Below, one piece after another: positions 23,363 to 28,696 of a DNA stretch of 64,000 nucleotides (position 1 is its first letter; each line of letters starts with the position of its first letter). A program made the position numbers and the translations under genes. The DNA is taken from the NCBI GenBank assembly GCA_019721075.1, contig JAHEAD010000005.1, forward strand, positions 1-64,000. Direction: 5' to 3'. The DNA is from Candidatus Sysuiplasma jiujiangense (GTDB taxonomy: Archaea; Thermoplasmatota; Thermoplasmata; Sysuiplasmatales; Sysuiplasmataceae). The notes beneath the pieces were generated by a model. The model worked only from the letters and a program-made list of their open reading frames with translations, was not told the DNA's origin and ran no database searches.

Positions 23363-26329
23363 CTATTCAATGTACCTGATGGCAGCGGATGGTTCTATCC
23401 GTGAAACTGCCCGAACCGAACTTATCACGGCCAGTATCGTCAGTGTGGCGGATATGGCAACAAGATAAAGGACGCTCGCGGGGGAATATGTAAATGAAAG
23501 TACGGGACTGAGTCTGCTTGCTATGATATTTCCGTTTATTAGGCTCATGATTACACCAATTACTGAGCCCGATACCGCTATGAATACGAACTCAAGGAGG
23601 AATGATGCGCTGACCATTCTTCTCGTGAATCCGAGTGCGCGCAGAAGACCTATGCTCTGATAGCGTTCCACCACGGAACGCATGGCTATTATACCGAGTC
23701 CGGCTGTTCCCGCAACCAGCCCCATTGCAATGAAAATTTCAGTCATTTCCACTATTCCGTTTATGTCCATGGTGATTTGTTGTGTAATCAGGTAGAGATT
23801 GAGTAATACGGGATTGTATTCCGTGAGAGCTTTCCTTATCTGTATGGATGCTGTGGTTGGTGAAACACCGTCTGCAAGGCTTATGAAAAGAACCGGAAAG
23901 GATGATCCCCTGAGGCCAAGGGAATCCATTGCCGTCGCCGAAACAAAGACCCCCTGAAAACCGAACTCATCGAGTATTCCCGCCACGACCACATTATGGG
24001 AAGTATGGTTGTTGCCGTACACAGTAAGTGTCTGGCCGAGTTTGATATTCACGTGAGGGTTCATGCCAGAACCGAAATTTCCCTGCTTTACGCCTGCAAG
24101 CGTCATGTCTATGACCGCCAGAGACGAATTGTTTTGAACAGCATTCCATACGCTGCGCTGTGAGTTGAATCGGGGGAGGTAGCTGTAAAACTGGTACCTG
24201 TTCCCGGAAAAGAAATCCCCTGTTCCATTATATGATGGTATTCCGACCAGCGGATAGATGAAGAGGCCGGAATCGTTGCCGCTGGCGGTAAACGCTGTTG
24301 TCGTATCATAAATCAGACTTGCCCGGGAAATATACCGGCTCAGTGAATTATTGTTTTCAATTGCGGAGGTTATGTTTGTACCATCACCGCTGTATACGAC
24401 AAAATTGTATCCACCGCTCTGCTTTGCAACCGTCTGGACTGCAGCCTGATCAACCATACTTCCAAGGACAGAAACCGATACAATCCCGAAAATGACAAAG
24501 GAAAACAGCGCCAGCGAGATCGCCGTTCTGGTCTTCTTCTGAGTGGTGAACGCAAGCGCCTGCCTGACCGTTGCGCTTATTCCTCCGCGATTAATCTTTT
24601 TTGGTTTCATCGCACTAAGCAGAAACGGCTCCAGTGCGAAGAATACCAGTATGCCTCCTGAAACGAGGAAAATACCTGATTCCACATAGACGTAATAGGA
24701 ATAGCCAAAATAATCCGGAAAAATACTCCATGCCTGTGGGATGCCCCACTGGATGATCAGACCGATTCCCGCAATTCCGGCAACAAAACTCCTGCCTGTG
24801 ATGACAACGATTAACCAGACCACCGATAATATCAGCAGAGACAGGCCAAGCATGGAAATTTCCAGAGATGTGGTGAAATAGCCTGCTGCCAGCAGGAACA
24901 CCGACACAATGGCGAGTAAAGCGAGCACAGTATTTTTGGGGCCGACTGCAACCTTACGCTGATTTACATTTCCTCTTATCGCATCTATTATGCTGAATCG
25001 ACTCATAAAAATGCTTGCGGCAATTATTACTGCAAAAGTGGCAATGCCTCCAGTAGAGAAGCCAATAACTATATCAGACAGGGAAGGGCTGAATGATGCA
25101 AGCAGTATGCCAGTATTTCTCACAGGCAGTGAAAATGTATGACCAAACAGCGCCACAAACCCGTACATCATCAAGAATCCAATTGCTATCCCGAGAAGTG
25201 AGCCTGCAAAGCATGAAATCGCGGTATACACGAAACCTTCGGAGACAAATCCGTATGTTATTCCGGCCCTGCTTGCACCCAGCGCCCTGAGAGTGCCAAG
25301 ATCCCTCATTCTTTCTTCGGCAAGCATGTAGAAAATGACAAGAACAAGTATCAGACCGGTTGCTACCGCGAACAGGCTCAGTGCCAGGTACAGATCGGAA
25401 AGATCACTTATTTCGGCATGGATTGTATTGAGCTGCTGCTGCAATAACGGATAAGCTGCAAGGGAAGTGCCAAATTCCGAATTGATTGACGGCAGTATGG
25501 AATCGATTTTTCTAATGGCACTGCCTGAGACTTTTACAGCAGAAAGTACTGTTCCGCTGTTGGCGATGGCAATGATGCTAATCCTTCCCTGGGAGCGAAG
25601 TGCAATTTGCGCGCCGCTCAGCCTCATGAATATGTTGAAACCAGAATCAAAATATCCTCTGTAATTGTCCCTGACAATACCGGCGACCCTTCCGGTGTAA
25701 TGCACTCCAGGACCAAAATACAGTGTAACAGTGTCGCCAGTGGTGGCATTAAGCTGGTTTGCGGCAAGTTCATCTATGAGTATCCCATCTGCGGGAAGCG
25801 AAGTTATCACGCTTCCATTGGCGGATATGAAGTTTCCCAGTACGCTGCTGGACCACCATGGCGTCCCGACCAAACCAATATCCTGGTATGGGACACCTGT
25901 TGTGTTGTCGAACACGCTGACAGTTTCATATATCATCGGAATGGCGGCTGAAATTCCGGAATAACCTGATATCGATGAGTTCAATGCGCTATAGGCTGAA
26001 TAATTGAAAAATGCTCCGTACAGCGAATTTCCGGAATCGGTGATTGTTTCGTCTATATGTCCGTAACTTAGCGCAACAAGGTTGTCGCTGAGTTCAAGCA
26101 TGCTGCTCCTCATAACCAGCGCCCCGCTGATCATTGCGGAGCCCACCATCAGCCCTGCTATTATGAGCGCTGCCCTCTTTCTGTTGCCGAAAGCATTCCG
26201 TATGAACATCCTGAATATTGTTCTGTCTTTCAGTATTATCGAGACCGAGAATACGCTGATTATGGCGAACGTGATTAGCAGCAACAAAGAAACATCAGGT
26301 ACCATTATCTGCATCTGATTCACCGTCAT
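23363..26329 (-). CDS. ABC transporter permease, duplicated FtsX/MacB-type
   Basis: Two ER...G.LRALG repeats, many TM helices and sequon-rich extracellular loops. Confidence 0.9.
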   Translation of the reverse strand: MTVNQMQIMVPDVSLLLLITFAIISVFSVSIILKDRTIFRMFIRNAFGNRKRAALIIAGLMVGSAMISGALVMRSSMLELSDNLVALSYGHIDETITDSGNSLYGAFFNYSAYSALNSSISGYSGISAAIPMIYETVSVFDNTTGVPYQDIGLVGTPWWSSSVLGNFISANGSVITSLPADGILIDELAANQLNATTGDTVTLYFGPGVHYTGRVAGIVRDNYRGYFDSGFNIFMRLSGAQIALRSQGRISIIAIANSGTVLSAVKVSGSAIRKIDSILPSINSEFGTSLAAYPLLQQQLNTIHAEISDLSDLYLALSLFAVATGLILVLVIFYMLAEERMRDLGTLRALGASRAGITYGFVSEGFVYTAISCFAGSLLGIAIGFLMMYGFVALFGHTFSLPVRNTGILLASFSPSLSDIVIGFSTGGIATFAVIIAASIFMSRFSIIDAIRGNVNQRKVAVGPKNTVLALLAIVSVFLLAAGYFTTSLEISMLGLSLLILSVVWLIVVITGRSFVAGIAGIGLIIQWGIPQAWSIFPDYFGYSYYVYVESGIFLVSGGILVFFALEPFLLSAMKPKKINRGGISATVRQALAFTTQKKTRTAISLALFSFVIFGIVSVSVLGSMVDQAAVQTVAKQSGGYNFVVYSGDGTNITSAIENNNSLSRYISRASLIYDTTTAFTASGNDSGLFIYPLVGIPSYNGTGDFFSGNRYQFYSYLPRFNSQRSVWNAVQNNSSLAVIDMTLAGVKQGNFGSGMNPHVNIKLGQTLTVYGNNHTSHNVVVAGILDEFGFQGVFVSATAMDSLGLRGSSFPVLFISLADGVSPTTASIQIRKALTEYNPVLLNLYLITQQITMDINGIVEMTEIFIAMGLVAGTAGLGIIAMRSVVERYQSIGLLRALGFTRRMVSASFLLEFVFIAVSGSVIGVIMSLINGNIIASRLSPVLSFTYSPASVLYLVAISATLTILAVISSVRAVSRIEPSAAIRYIE

Positions 26330-27035
26330 TCTCTATTTTCCCATCGCGGATCTTGATTTTTCTCTTTGAGTACGAAGCAACATCCTCATTGTGCGTCACA
26401 ACTATTACTGTCGAATCGGTCTCCCGGTTAAGCTGGCTGAAGAGTTCAAGGACTGCCTTGCCTGAAATGCTGTCGAGATTGCCGGTCGGTTCGTCAGCCC
26501 ATATCACAGCAGGTCTGTTTATCAGTGCCCTTGCTATGGCTACCCTCTGCTGTTCGCCGCCGGAGAGTTGATTCGGCCTGAATTTTGCCCTGTCGGCAAG
26601 TCCGACGTACTTCAGAATCTCGATTGCCCTTGCCCGCGTCTCTGTCCCACGGACGCCCGCAATTAGTGCTGGAAGTTCAACGTTTTCAACCACGTTGAAC
26701 ACAGGCAGCAGGGCATAGTTCTGAAAGACAAAACCCATTCTAATCGATCTGAAATAACTGATTTCTCTGTCGCTCAGCGCACTTATGTTCCTGCCGTCTA
26801 CTATGACTTCGCCTTCACTTACCGTGTCCAGGCCGGACATGCAGTTCAGCAGCGTACTCTTTCCGGAACCTGAGGGGCCTGAAATAGATACAAATTCCCC
26901 TTTCCTGAACTTCAGGCTCACATTTCTTAGAACTGATATGGACTCTTTTCCAATCATATAGTATTTGCTGATGTTCCTTGCTTCTGCCGCGATTTCGGTC
27001 ACTGTAGCCCTCGGCTGCCCGTTGTATTGAATCAA
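26295..27035 (-). CDS. ABC transporter ATP-binding protein (LolD/MacB type)
   Basis: GPSGSGKST, LSGGEQQRVAIARAL, ADEPTGNLD and VTH motifs. Confidence 0.95.
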   Translation of the reverse strand: MIQYNGQPRATVTEIAAEARNISKYYMIGKESISVLRNVSLKFRKGEFVSISGPSGSGKSTLLNCMSGLDTVSEGEVIVDGRNISALSDREISYFRSIRMGFVFQNYALLPVFNVVENVELPALIAGVRGTETRARAIEILKYVGLADRAKFRPNQLSGGEQQRVAIARALINRPAVIWADEPTGNLDSISGKAVLELFSQLNRETDSTVIVVTHNEDVASYSKRKIKIRDGKIENDGESDADNGT

Positions 27036-27088
27036 GTTATTTCCAGTTAATTAACTGAGTCCCGAAGAAATCGTACGAGGACATGGTG

Positions 27089-27150
27089 TGCCACTCGGCT
27101 CGCCCGTCACTCATCACAGTATCAGCGCTGGGTTTCTCGTCACCGTGGCA
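27089..27150 (-). ncRNA. Archaeal box C/D 2'-O-methylation guide sRNA (predicted targets 16S Cm1402 and 23S Gm2581, E. coli numbering)
   Basis: Minus strand reads TGCCAC-g-[C GTGACGA]-GAAACCCAGCG-[D' CTGA]-tact-[C' GTGATGA]-GTGACGGGCGAG-[D CCGA]-GTGGCA. It has a 6-bp terminal stem, 11- and 12-nt guides antisense to conserved rRNA (GCUGGGUUU and CGCCCGUCA), and a TATA-like TTTCTAAA about 21-28 nt upstream. Confidence 0.9.
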
Positions 27151-27347
27151 GCATGGTCATTTCATAAGAGTTTAGAAAGTTATCGATCCAAACACTGCCG
27201 GCTGACCGTGAAACGGCACTCTTCGCTCAATGTCCAGATCTTAAATTAAAGTCCGTACACGTCTGCTGTCTATGCAGCCAGGCACAGAACGAATTTGCCG
27301 CATTGCCGCACAAAAGACTTTTAAGACTGAGCTGTTATGCTGCAGTT

Positions 27348-27530
27348 GTGAAAAGAAAACTGATGGAAATACTTGCCTGCCCTGTATGCAAAAACCATCC
27401 GCTGGATATCGCAGTAACCAAAGAGGATGGAGGCGAAATTATCTCAGGCACAATAACCTGTTCGAAATGCGGAGGCACGTATCCCATAGAAGACTCTATT
27501 CCGAACATGCTCCCGCAAAATATGCGATAA
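27348..27530 (+). CDS. trm112: Trm112-family methyltransferase activator
   Basis: MKRKLMEILACPVCK...ITCSKC..YPIEDSIPNML. GTG start about 23 nt after a TTTTAAG TATA-like box (leaderless). Confidence 0.88.
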   Translation: MKRKLMEILACPVCKNHPLDIAVTKEDGGEIISGTITCSKCGGTYPIEDSIPNMLPQNMR

Positions 27531-27538
27531 GGGCGAGA

Positions 27539-28696
27539 TCATGTTCGCAGTGTTTTAAGCGCCCTTTCCATAGAATCCAGACCCTTCTCCAGGTTGTTCA
27601 TGCTAGTTGCATACGATAACCTGAAATGCCTCTCCCCAAATTTGCCGAAGGATGATCCTGGTGTTACGGCGACCTGTGCCCTGTCAAGAAGGAATTCGCT
27701 GATGCTCTCTGAATCCATTTCGTAATCATATTTCGGGAAGGCATAGAACGCTCCCTGCGGCTCCACCACATTCATACCTTCAATCTCCTTCAGTCGCCTG
27801 ACAACGAAGTCGCGTCTTTTTCTGAATTCCGAAACCATCTTTTCAACGGGCTCCTTGGGTCCTCTGAGCGCTGCGACTCCTGCTTTCTGCACAAACGAGG
27901 TCACACAGGTAATGGAGTGCGTCTGGATCTTGAGTATGTCCTTCAGGAGGCGCTTATCGGCGTGAAGGTATCCCAGCCTCCATCCTGTCATCGAATAAGT
28001 CTTGGAAAATCCATTTACGGTGATAACTCTCTCTTTCATTCCTGGAAAAGAGCCAGGTGAATAGTTTACTGCATCATATATGATCTTCTCGTAAATCTCG
28101 TCACTAAGGATGAGTAAATCATGCTCTCTGGCCAAATCACACAATCCCTCAATGTCCTCCTTCCCGGCTACCGCTCCAGTAGGGTTATTCGGCGAATTGA
28201 GTATTATCATTCTGGTCTTTTCTGTGATCTTTTCGGCAACAAGCTCTGGTGTAAGTCTGAAACCTGTCTCTTCATCGGCCCTGACAGGCACCGGGATGCC
28301 TTCGGCAATTCTCACCATCGGCTCATATGATACCCAGGAAGGGTCTGGAATTATTACCTCCATGTTCCTGTCGACAAGTGCAAGTACTGCCATGAATAGT
28401 GCCTGTTTTGTAGGAGTGACGACGATCTCGGAACTTTCCGCATCTATGCCATTCTCAGCCTTCAGCTTCTGTGATATCGCCTCTCTCAGTTCAGGTATAC
28501 CTGCAGAGGCGGTGTATTTTGTGAAACCAGATTTAAGGGCCTCTATACACGCATCCACAATATGCTGTGGCGTTGGGAAATCCGGTTCGCCTATGGAAAA
28601 CGAAGTCACATCAAGCCCCCTGGATTTGAGCTCCTTGACCTTGTCAGCCACCTTTACTGTCCCGGATTCAACTATGTTTTCCATTCGTCCCGGCAT
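27539..28696 (-). CDS. Class I/II PLP aminotransferase (aspartate aminotransferase-like)
   Basis: IGEPDF.TP, NSPNNPTG, SDEIY, NGFSKTYSMTGWRLG and RLSYA. ATG 28696 preferred over the long ORF-track start. Confidence 0.92.
   Translation of the reverse strand: MPGRMENIVESGTVKVADKVKELKSRGLDVTSFSIGEPDFPTPQHIVDACIEALKSGFTKYTASAGIPELREAISQKLKAENGIDAESSEIVVTPTKQALFMAVLALVDRNMEVIIPDPSWVSYEPMVRIAEGIPVPVRADEETGFRLTPELVAEKITEKTRMIILNSPNNPTGAVAGKEDIEGLCDLAREHDLLILSDEIYEKIIYDAVNYSPGSFPGMKERVITVNGFSKTYSMTGWRLGYLHADKRLLKDILKIQTHSITCVTSFVQKAGVAALRGPKEPVEKMVSEFRKRRDFVVRRLKEIEGMNVVEPQGAFYAFPKYDYEMDSESISEFLLDRAQVAVTPGSSFGKFGERHFRLSYATSMNNLEKGLDSMERALKTLRT

What the first reader, a model, noticed from the sequence alone, without database searches (positions are those of the whole stretch)
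27089..27150. Hidden double-guide box C/D sRNA aimed at the decoding centre (16S C1402) and the peptidyl-transferase region (23S G2581)
Seen: the minus strand has a full C-guide-D'-C'-guide-D layout closed by a TGCCAC/GTGGCA stem, with a variant C box (GTGACGA) and a variant D box (CCGA). The D guide contains GTGACGGGCG, antisense to the conserved SSU stretch CGCCCGUCA. The D' guide contains AAACCCAGC, antisense to LSU GCUGGGUUU. Established: the base paired to the 5th nt upstream of a D/D' box is 2'-O-methylated. Counting gives C1402, a site ribose-methylated by RsmI in bacteria and by snoRNA guides in eukaryotes, and G2581 (E. coli numbering). Landing exactly on C1402 is independent support. 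Inference: one sRNA modifies both ribosomal functional centres. It is divergent from trm112 and ends about 54 nt before the ABC-exporter start, so it may be processed from that operon's leader.
Basis: partly seen in the sequence, partly recalled or inferred. Interest (0 to 1): 0.75.

Follow-up and report, generated by a model that had tools for sequence, protein, structure and literature searches.

The report
Archaeal rRNA methylation guide RNA
This is a genuine small guide RNA of a Thermoplasmata archaeon that very probably directs a sugar methylation onto a universally modified cytosine in the ribosome's decoding site; it is an ordinary member of a well-known RNA class, with a slightly unusual protein-binding motif.

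Summary
The 62-nt element on the minus strand (27150..27089) is a real box C/D sRNA. The layout is exactly as described. It is the only such layout in the 2.29-Mb genome, and 6 shuffled genomes gave none. All 9 of 9 same-family genomes keep it at 91-95% identity, confined to the 62 nt. A covariance model finds the family in 39 of 41 class genomes. The terminal stem covaries. Fibrillarin, Nop5 and L7Ae are encoded.

The D guide points at 16S C1402. The host 16S has U1404, so the duplex is 9 bp with one G.U. One relative with U1404 carries the compensating A in its guide. The D' guide points at 23S G2581 but pairs only 8 bp here, which is chance level on its own. It pairs 9 bp in a sister genus. 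Its target is therefore plausible, not shown.

The "variant" C and D boxes are one paired change, U.U to C.C, in the kink-turn. Published Methanopyrus sRNAs show the same boxes.

The sRNA has its own promoter-like element, and only trm112 linkage is conserved. Leader processing is not supported. C1402 guides are known, so this is a new member of a known kind.

The parts
27145..27150 (-). 5' strand of the terminal stem (UGCCAC)
   Evidence: Pairs with 27089-27094. Across 92 homologues 88.8% of cells are paired against 54.0% in shuffles (0 of 500 reach it), with 166 cells changed on both sides.
27137..27143 (-). C box GUGACGA (consensus RUGAUGA, with C instead of U at position 5, which is k-turn position 3b)
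   Evidence: The GA dinucleotides for the tandem sheared pairs are intact. Position 5 covaries with D-box position 2.
27126..27136 (-). D' guide GAAACCCAGCG (11 nt). Position 5 upstream of D' pairs with 23S G2581 (E. coli numbering; own LSU 2618)
   Evidence: 8 contiguous Watson-Crick pairs with own 23S GCUGGGUU, and 9 with the 23S of genus g3. The core AAACCCAGC is kept in 8 of 10 f1 copies and in 3 Methanomassiliicoccales-labelled MAGs.
27122..27125 (-). D' box CUGA
   Evidence: Exact consensus. Invariant in 92 of 92 aligned homologues.
27118..27121 (-). Loop UACU between D' and C' (k-loop)
   Evidence: Length (3-4 nt) and sequence vary freely among f1 relatives.
27111..27117 (-). C' box GUGAUGA
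   Evidence: Exact consensus.
27099..27110 (-). D guide GUGACGGGCGAG (12 nt). Position 5 upstream of D pairs with 16S C1402 (own SSU 1341)
   Evidence: 9 contiguous pairs with own 16S C1400-A1408, one of them G.U at U1404. Identical in 10 of 10 f1 copies. The core GAYGGGCG is spread across Euryarchaeota and DPANN MAGs. G032, whose 16S also has U1404, carries GACAGGCG.
27095..27098 (-). D box CCGA (consensus CUGA, with C instead of U at position 2, which is k-turn position 3n)
   Evidence: 19 of the 20 full-architecture hits with CCGA have C at C-box position 5; the exception is a bacterial chance match.
27089..27094 (-). 3' strand of the terminal stem (GUGGCA)
27171..27184 (-). Promoter-like element (GAUAA-CUUUCUAAA) at about -34 to -21 from the sRNA 5' end
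   Evidence: Over 92 homologues, A-rich at -34..-30, 73-86% A/T (T-dominant) at -28..-24, and a second A/T peak at -9. Background is about 55%. Inferred to be an archaeal BRE/TATA element; no transcript data.
27363..27530 (+). Divergent neighbour: Trm112p-like protein (55 aa from the ATG; the ORF listed from TTG at 27303)
   Evidence: PF03966, E 6.6e-11. Linked to the sRNA in 9 of 9 f1 relatives.
26295..27035 (-). Downstream neighbour: ABC transporter ATPase, followed by an FtsX-type permease at 23363-26329. Not part of the element
   Evidence: PF00005 and PF02687. It follows the sRNA only in the 3 of 3 same-genus relatives and in 0 of 6 other f1 genomes.

Best explanation
A stand-alone gene for a 62-nt archaeal box C/D sRNA, transcribed from its own promoter. 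Inferred mechanism, from the established C/D sRNP model: L7Ae binds the terminal C/D kink-turn and the internal C'/D' k-loop, and a Nop5 dimer brings two fibrillarins. The 12-nt D guide pairs with 16S nucleotides 1400-1408, so fibrillarin 2'-O-methylates C1402 in the decoding site. The 11-nt D' guide probably pairs with 23S 2578-2585 and methylates G2581 at the base of helix 90, next to the peptidyl-transferase centre. The unusual C and D boxes are one compensated change: k-turn position 3b.3n is C.C instead of U.U. Shown here: the anatomy, conservation, covariation, complementarity and the presence of the protein genes. Inferred: expression, RNP assembly and both methylations.
For: 1. The architecture is exact and unique in the genome, and absent from 6 shuffles at strict settings.
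2. In 9 of 9 same-family genomes a 91-95% identical copy ends exactly at the 62-nt borders, with unrelated flanks.
3. Model R1 finds the family in 39 of 41 class genomes and in 27 of 27 high-quality ones.
4. The terminal stem is 88.8% paired against 54.0% shuffled (0 of 500), and 23-40% when slid.
5. Fibrillarin (177.7 bits), Nop5 (157.4) and L7Ae (102.8) are encoded.
6. No RsmI (TIGR00096) or RsmH (PF01795) hit was found in a 97% complete genome.
7. The D guide is invariant in 10 of 10 f1 copies and its core is shared with many archaeal orders.
8. G032 has 16S U1404/A1497 and a guide with A opposite U1404. Both lie on one contig.
9. An alternative 16S site (own SSU 1290-1299) is lost in genus g3, which keeps the same guide.
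10. Cm1402 equivalents are reported in P. abyssi (Cm1369), yeast, human and plants (PMC11542601, table rows) and in N. equitans by RiboMeth-seq (PMC5389701, passages).
11. The D' guide is nearly as conserved as the D guide while loop and linker vary. It pairs 9 bp in genus g3. The same core occurs with canonical boxes in 3 Methanomassiliicoccales-labelled MAGs.
Against: There are no expression or methylation data. All Rfam hits lie below their gathering scores. The host 16S gives a G.U two pairs from the target nucleotide, and f1 and G030 have not compensated it. The D' duplex is only 8 bp in this genome. Noise candidates from the loose scan reach 8-10.5 pairs against rRNA. The D' guide pairs equally (8 bp) with C63-U70 of two tRNA-Ala genes. 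G002 and G003 have A at D' guide position 3, opposite an unchanged C2579. The homologues are kin, so the shuffle controls overstate significance.
Confidence: 0.85

Rival explanations
1. The sRNA is real and guides Cm1402, but in this organism the D' guide is an orphan or decaying. Alternatively it serves another target, such as G67 in the acceptor stem of tRNA-Ala, rather than 23S G2581.
For: The 23S pairing is only 8 bp here, after U2586 became C in genus g1. There is an equal 8-bp match to the 3' end of two tRNA-Ala genes. Two of the 4 g1 genomes have a mispair at N3. Random candidates reach similar pairing. No Gm at this position appears in the rows of the eukaryote/archaea table I saw.
Against: The guide's 5' AAA, which pairs only with the 23S UUU and not with tRNA-Ala, is kept in f1 and in 3 Methanomassiliicoccales-labelled MAGs, whose N1 differs. 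The 23S pairing is 9 bp in genus g3. An N3 mispair is also tolerated in the D guide of G010, G023 and G034. Acceptor-stem ribose methylation by C/D guides is not something I know of (recalled).
Confidence: 0.35
2. The RNA acts mainly as an assembly chaperone that transiently masks the 16S 1400 region, and perhaps helix 90 of 23S, with methylation secondary or absent.
For: Chaperone roles are proposed for archaeal C/D sRNAs (PMC4644070 and PMC7994747, abstracts and passages). The G.U and mispairs near the target in several lineages would weaken catalysis more than binding.
Against: The register is kept strictly so that N5 faces C1402 in all homologues inspected. C1402 is ribose-methylated in all three domains. 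Both box pairs and the 11-12-nt spacing needed for catalysis are intact.
Confidence: 0.07
3. It is not an RNA gene. It is a chance motif cluster, part of the ABC operon 5' leader, or part of the 53-codon plus-strand ORF at 27088-27249.
For: All Rfam matches are sub-threshold. The ORF exists mechanically.
Against: Conservation is confined to the 62 nt and does not extend over the ORF or the leader. Stem covariation is strong. The family is class-wide, with changing neighbours. No equivalent turned up in 6 shuffled genomes.
Confidence: 0.01

Closest known systems
Methanopyrus kandleri MKAsR114 (Dennis et al. 2015, PMC4644070, Additional file 1; rows seen)
   Same: It carries the same guide core (GUGAUGGGCGGA next to a CCGA box) and the same box variants, AUGACGA with CCGA. 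It was detected by RNA-seq in that study.
   Different: There the C1402-type guide sits between C and D', not between C' and D. The second guide is unrelated. The host is a hyperthermophile with 127 sRNA genes (Table 1), whereas my scans found two guides here.
Sulfolobus acidocaldarius Sac-sR122 (same file) and the P. abyssi guide behind 16S Cm1369 (PMC11542601 Table 2)
   Same: They share the GAUGGGCG guide core and the C1402-equivalent site.
   Different: Box positions, partner guides and lineages differ. I did not see the P. abyssi sRNA sequence itself.
Eukaryotic U43-type snoRNAs (AtU43 named in PMC11542601; yeast snR70 and human SNORD43 recalled)
   Same: They are fibrillarin guide RNAs for the same universally conserved cytidine (yeast Cm1639, human Cm1703, Arabidopsis Cm1645).
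   Different: They are eukaryotic snoRNPs (Nop56/Nop58/Snu13) with poorly conserved C'/D' boxes. No sequence homology was tested.
Bacterial RsmI (with RsmH)
   Same: It gives the same product at the same nucleotide, 2'-O-methyl C1402 (PMC11551388 and PMC11542601, passages).
   Different: It is a stand-alone protein enzyme with no guide RNA. No RsmI or RsmH hit was found in this genome.
M. kandleri MKAsR56 and eukaryotic Am2946/Cm2948 (yeast numbering)
   Same: MKAsR56 has the D guide ACCCAGCUCACG, complementary to the same 23S helix-90 strand. By my N+5 count it faces the A2577 equivalent. Yeast Am2946 and Cm2948 map to E. coli 2577 and 2579 by the offset Um2921 = U2552 (offset arithmetic is mine).
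   Different: None of these addresses G2581. A Gm there would be a new position within a known methylation hotspot.

Membership tests
Archaeal box C/D sRNA (guide RNA of the L7Ae-Nop5-fibrillarin methyltransferase) | Terminal C box (RUGAUGA) and D box (CUGA) able to form a k-turn with tandem sheared G.A pairs | tested here: met
   GUGACGA with CCGA: both GA dinucleotides and the 4b-4n G-C pair are intact. Only 3b.3n differs, C.C for U.U. The two changes co-occur in 19 of 19 archaeal CCGA copies. Actual L7Ae binding was not tested.
Archaeal box C/D sRNA (guide RNA of the L7Ae-Nop5-fibrillarin methyltransferase) | Internal D' and C' boxes | tested here: met
   CUGA and GUGAUGA, both exact, 4 nt apart.
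Archaeal box C/D sRNA (guide RNA of the L7Ae-Nop5-fibrillarin methyltransferase) | Guide spacers of about 10-12 nt between C and D' and between C' and D | tested here: met
   11 nt and 12 nt. Dennis et al. give 10-12 nt as typical (PMC4644070, passage).
Archaeal box C/D sRNA (guide RNA of the L7Ae-Nop5-fibrillarin methyltransferase) | Terminal stem closing the C/D motif, supported by covariation | tested here: met
   6 bp here. All 6 of 6 pairs show changes on both sides across 92 homologues, and the covariation score is 0.804 against 0.180 shuffled.
Archaeal box C/D sRNA (guide RNA of the L7Ae-Nop5-fibrillarin methyltransferase) | Guide complementarity to rRNA or tRNA, with the N+5 nucleotide paired | tested here: met
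   D guide: 9 pairs (one G.U) with own 16S 1400-1408, with N5 facing C1402. There is guide/target compensation in G032. The D' guide is rated separately below.
Archaeal box C/D sRNA (guide RNA of the L7Ae-Nop5-fibrillarin methyltransferase) | Second (D') guide has a credible target | tested here: inconclusive
   8 bp to 23S with N5 facing G2581, and an equal 8 bp to tRNA-Ala. Both are at the level of noise candidates. The 9 bp in genus g3 and the conserved core argue for 23S.
Archaeal box C/D sRNA (guide RNA of the L7Ae-Nop5-fibrillarin methyltransferase) | Host encodes fibrillarin, Nop5 and L7Ae | tested here: met
   PF01269 177.7 bits, PF01798 157.4 bits and PF01248 102.8 bits, all above cut-off.
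Archaeal box C/D sRNA (guide RNA of the L7Ae-Nop5-fibrillarin methyltransferase) | Expressed as a ~60-nt RNA bound by L7Ae; target is methylated | not testable with these tools
Curated Rfam C/D families (sR2 RF01139, snoPyro_CD RF00095 and others) | Score at or above the family's gathering threshold | tested here: not met
   The best is 19.8 bits against 42 (sR2). All 7 of 7 hits are below threshold. These models are built on Pyrococcus or Sulfolobus sRNAs with other guides, so it is not a member of any of those specific families.
Pan-archaeal C1402-guide sRNAs (guide core GAYGGGCG abutting a D or D' box) | Guide core in N+5 register with 16S C1402 | tested here: met
   The same core and register occur in 102 full-architecture homologues out of 135 pattern occurrences in 137 loci, and in the published MKAsR114 and Sac-sR122.

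The most novel reading that the evidence does not exclude
This lineage keeps the whole fibrillarin-Nop5-L7Ae machine for as few as two guide RNAs, this one and the tRNA-Trp intron guide. This one would couple Cm1402 in the decoding site with a so far unreported Gm2581 beside the peptidyl-transferase centre. Its terminal kink-turn has switched 3b.3n from U.U to C.C by a paired change. By the rule in the abstract of McPhee et al. 2014 (3b = C permits ion-induced folding), it might fold without L7Ae. In an acid-habitat archaeon it might be held by a protonated C.C+ pair.
Probability: 0.15. Interest if true: 0.5.

Novelty: new member of a known kind. Interest (0 to 1): 0.3.

Why it matters
It adds an unannotated core RNA gene to Thermoplasmata genomes. 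It also shows that the C1402 guide is close to universal in this class (39 of 41 genomes). That fits the view that ribose methylation of C1402 is kept in all three domains by different means. Three modest points go beyond routine annotation:

- The U.U to C.C change (and A.U in two other families) at k-turn position 3b.3n is a natural series for testing the published folding rules of box C/D k-turns.
- The U1404-A1497 rRNA variant, met by a wobble in two lineages and by a compensating guide base in a third, is a natural test of how much guide-target mismatch the enzyme tolerates near the target.
- G2581 would be a new methylation position in a known hotspot, if confirmed.

Tried and rejected
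- **Rfam at gathering thresholds:** 0 hits in the window.
- **RF00095 over the whole genome:** 12 hits at E 0.7-10. It did not list the window's own sRNA (only 150 of 496 candidates were scored). One hit led to the tRNA-Trp intron guide; the rest look like noise.
- **Loose motif scan:** 25 candidates, mostly indistinguishable from shuffles (8 real against 4-10 shuffled at a comparable setting). It was used only to calibrate how much rRNA pairing noise guides reach.
- **Alternative D-guide site in own 16S** (SSU 1290-1299, 10 pairs with two tandem G.U): rejected, because genus g3 keeps the guide but not the site.
- **tRNA-Ala as D' target:** kept only as a minor rival.
- **Leader-processing idea:** rejected on synteny and promoter evidence.
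- **Plus-strand 53-codon ORF:** rejected, because conservation stops at the sRNA borders.
- **Public sequencing runs:** no RNA holder listed. Read laying was therefore not used, since DNA contigs cannot show an RNA.
- **Earlier scan notes by sequence and by place:** nothing.
- **Literature searches** surfaced no description of a Thermoplasmata C1402 guide or of a C.C box C/D k-turn. These four searches cover open-access text only, so this is not a claim of absence in print. Additional file 2 of PMC4644070 (box logos) was not among the files held, and it may bear on the C.C variant.
- **Not attempted:** Complex prediction, structure tools and protein searches, because the finding is an RNA.

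Full report
**Observation.** On the minus strand, window 27150..27089 reads UGCCAC G GUGACGA GAAACCCAGCG CUGA UACU GUGAUGA GUGACGGGCGAG CCGA GUGGCA. This is the complete archaeal box C/D layout:
- a 6-bp terminal stem;
- C box, 11-nt spacer, D' box, 4-nt loop, C' box, 12-nt spacer, D box.

D' and C' match the consensus exactly. The C box has C for U at position 5, and the D box has C for U at position 2.

A scan of both strands of the 2.29-Mb genome for this layout returned this locus alone. That held even with up to 3 mismatches in the internal boxes. Six Markov-shuffled genomes gave no hit at the two strictest settings.

Rfam at curated thresholds finds nothing in the window. In E-value mode, seven archaeal C/D families align full length to exactly these coordinates and this strand, all well below threshold (best sR2, 19.8 bits against 42).

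**The host.** The window is contig C45 of a 55-contig genome that is 97% complete.
- It encodes fibrillarin, Nop5 and L7Ae.
- It has no hit to RsmI or RsmH.
- Its 16S and 23S genes lie on different contigs.
- Named MAGs carrying the closest sRNA homologues are labelled Thermoplasmata, Thermoplasmatota or Methanomassiliicoccales.

**Conservation.** A BLAST of the element plus 30-nt flanks against 40 relatives gave a 91-95% identical match in 9 of 9 same-family genomes. In each case the match ends at the borders of the 62 nt, and the flanks are unrelated. Within the family, the loop, the linker base, the first C-box base and one stem pair vary. The D guide is identical in 10 of 10 copies, and the D' guide in 8 of 10.

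The hits were Thermoplasmata, Methanomassiliicoccales, Methanomethylophilaceae, Methanobacteriales, Methanofastidiosa, Altiarchaeota, Iainarchaeota and others. There were also Archaeoglobi and Thermococci, where the same guide sits between C and D', and a minority of bacterial chance matches.

Of 135 pattern occurrences in 137 loci, 102 have the full architecture. On 92 distinct homologues, the terminal stem is paired in 88.8% of cells. Shuffles give 54.0% (0 of 500 reach the observed value) and slid registers give 23-40%. There are 166 cells changed on both sides.

A covariance model built from this alignment finds the family in 39 of 41 class genomes and in 27 of 27 high-quality ones. The two misses are 72% and 57% complete. 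It finds exactly one copy in the host genome (65.2 bits, E 2.7e-13). The homologues are kin, so these controls overstate independence. Even so, the element is beyond reasonable doubt a conserved structured RNA gene.

**D guide.** Numbering was checked against annotated E. coli rRNA. CCGCCCGUCA starts at 1399, so the nucleotide facing guide position N5 is C1402.

The host 16S, however, reads ACCGCCUGUCAA, with the partner strand AAGUCAUAACAAGG. This is a compensated U1404-A1497 pair. All 7 of 7 family genomes whose locus covers the region share it, as do G030 and G032. Fifteen other class genomes have C1404-G1497.

The duplex is therefore 9 pairs, C1400 to A1408, with G.U at 1404. Nine pairs alone is not decisive, because noise candidates reach 8-10.5. 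The support comes from three other lines:
- The guide core is kept across very distant archaea, in the same register.
- G032 has U1404 and carries GACAGGCG, with A opposite the U. Its 16S and sRNA lie on one contig.
- A second possible site in the host 16S is absent from genus g3, which has the identical guide.

The site is known to be ribose-methylated. It is E. coli Cm1402, P. abyssi Cm1369, yeast Cm1639 and human Cm1703 (PMC11542601, table rows). N. equitans Cm1402 was found by RiboMeth-seq, with no guide identified there (PMC5389701, passages).

**D' guide.** N5 faces 23S G2581. This comes from a count on an E. coli copy of 2906 nt, corrected by 2 to the standard numbering; the standard length is recalled.

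Evidence against a 23S target in this organism:
- The host 23S reads GCUGGGUUC, so only 8 pairs form.
- The guide pairs equally well, 8 bp, with C63-U70 of two tRNA-Ala genes.
- G002 and G003 carry GAAACCCAACG, a mispair at N3, although the G002 23S stretch is identical to the host's.

Evidence for a 23S target:
- Genus g3 has GCUGGGUUU, giving 9 pairs.
- Three Methanomassiliicoccales-labelled MAGs keep the core AAACCCAGC with canonical boxes. That core includes the AAA that can pair only with 23S.
- N3 mispairs also occur in the D guide of G010, G023 and G034.
- The same 23S strand is a known hotspot. M. kandleri MKAsR56 is complementary to it, and yeast Am2946 and Cm2948 map to 2577 and 2579 by offset (arithmetic mine).

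I put the 23S G2581 target at roughly 55-60%.

**Variant boxes.** C-box position 5 and D-box position 2 face each other as k-turn position 3b.3n. This geometry is from the standard k-turn nomenclature, and archaeal C/D k-turns have "a strong propensity to U:U" there (PMC5689011, passage). Among the 102 full-architecture homologues, the 3b.3n pairs are:

| Pair | Count |
|---|---|
| U/U | 76 |
| C/C | 19 |
| G/U | 3 |
| C/U | 2 (one a doubtful parse) |
| A/U | 1 |
| A/C | 1 (a bacterial chance hit) |

Every archaeal CCGA D box goes with xUGACGA. In the class sample, C.C occurs in families f1 and f4, and A.U in f3 and f7. The two "variants" are thus one paired change.

It is not new as sequence. 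Published M. kandleri sRNAs such as MKAsR114, MKAsR35 and MKAsR45 combine GAUGACGA with CCGA (PMC4644070, Additional file 1). The passages I read in that paper and in PMC3695527 do not discuss it. The abstract of McPhee et al. 2014 states that 3b = C permits ion-induced folding in Kt-7 (PMC4382518). Whether that holds in a C/D context is untested.

**Transcription and context.** The neighbours are a Trm112p-like gene (divergent), a class I/II aminotransferase, and a MacB-type ABC ATPase with an FtsX permease downstream. trm112 and the aminotransferase accompany the sRNA in 9 of 9 family relatives. The ABC genes do so only in the 3 of 3 same-genus relatives.

Over 92 homologues, the upstream region shows three features at fixed distances from the sRNA 5' end:
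- an A-rich block at -34..-30;
- a T-rich block at -28..-24, 73-86% A/T;
- a further A/T peak at -9.

Here the sequence is GAUAA-CUUUCUAAA at window 27184-27171. This fits an archaeal BRE/TATA promoter firing at or near the first base of the stem. It argues against processing from the ABC leader.

**Repertoire.** Apart from this locus, the only other C/D guide I found lies in the intron of a tRNA at C3:63359-63533. ARAGORN calls it a tRNA with an 85-nt intron but names it Leu(gag). My reading of the anticodon arm is Trp(CCA), with the D guide's N5 facing C34, as in the known haloarchaeal case (recalled). My scans are not exhaustive.

**Comparison and verdict.** The element meets every sequence-level criterion of an archaeal box C/D sRNA. 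It belongs to the pan-archaeal set of C1402 guides already in print (MKAsR114, Sac-sR122, the P. abyssi Cm1369 site). Earlier notes of this scan on other archaea reached the same verdict for analogous guides. It is a new member of a known kind.

The points of some interest are the compensated C.C k-turn, the uncompensated wobble against U1404 (compensated in G032), the possible Gm2581, and the very small guide repertoire. There are no expression or modification data, so function rests on inference from the established C/D sRNP mechanism.

Noticed in passing
G000:C3:63359-63533 (+), outside the window: An intron-containing tRNA whose intron holds a second box C/D sRNA (cGGAUGA ... CUGA ... GAUGAUGA ... 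AUGA, stem GGCAGC/GCUGCC). ARAGORN names it Leu(gag) with an 85-nt intron. By my reading it is tRNA-Trp(CCA), and the D guide's N5 faces C34. The D' guide has 9 bp to own 16S UUAAAGGAA (SSU 850-858).
   Followed up: partly
G000:C2:7428-8895 (-), own 16S; loci L038-L044, L047, L058: The 16S has a compensated U1404-A1497 pair in place of the usual C1404-G1497, within the decoding-site helix. It is present in 7 of 7 family genomes with the region and in G030 and G032. Fifteen other class genomes have C-G.
   Followed up: partly
L239 (G032:C6:335565-335648): The G032 homologue has degenerate internal boxes (D' AUGA, C' AUGAUUA) and a D guide GACAGGCG that restores a Watson-Crick pair with its U1404. 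f1 and G030 keep G, a wobble.
   Followed up: partly
G000:C32:3120-6043 (-), own 23S; loci L068-L070, L073, L074, L086: 23S position 2586 (E. coli numbering), next to the peptidyl-transferase nucleotides U2584 and U2585, is C in genus g1 and in G012, G026 and G030. It is U in the other class genomes seen.
   Followed up: no
L113, L131, L212: Contigs labelled Bacteroidaceae, Lachnospiraceae and Clostridium carry complete archaeal C1402-guide sRNAs identical in type to Methanomethylophilaceae or Methanobrevibacter copies. They are probably archaeal contigs mis-binned into bacterial gut MAGs.
   Followed up: no
L098, L114, L130, L132, L136, L147, L154, L158, L169, L185, L189, L211: In MAGs labelled Archaeoglobi, Thermococci or Hydrothermarchaeales, the same guide core follows a C box and precedes a D' box. 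The guide sits in the other half of the sRNA. Three Thermococcus-type copies have CCGA as that box.
   Followed up: no
L230, L232, L233 (G036, G011, G015): In families f3 and f7 the C box is AUGAAGA with D box CUGA. This makes k-turn position 3b.3n an A-U Watson-Crick pair. The abstract of McPhee et al. 2014 says such a pair prevents ion-induced folding.
   Followed up: no
G000:C52:5027-5626 and G000:C15:13228-13851: The fibrillarin and Nop5 genes lie on different contigs, each well inside its contig. They are therefore not adjacent, unlike the nop5-fibrillarin gene pair common in archaea (the latter is recalled).
   Followed up: no
window 26700-27700: Near-identical DNA (0.94-0.95 of sampled words) is held by 5 runs not flagged as a possible source, from 4 studies, labelled mine tailings or sediment metagenome.
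   Followed up: no
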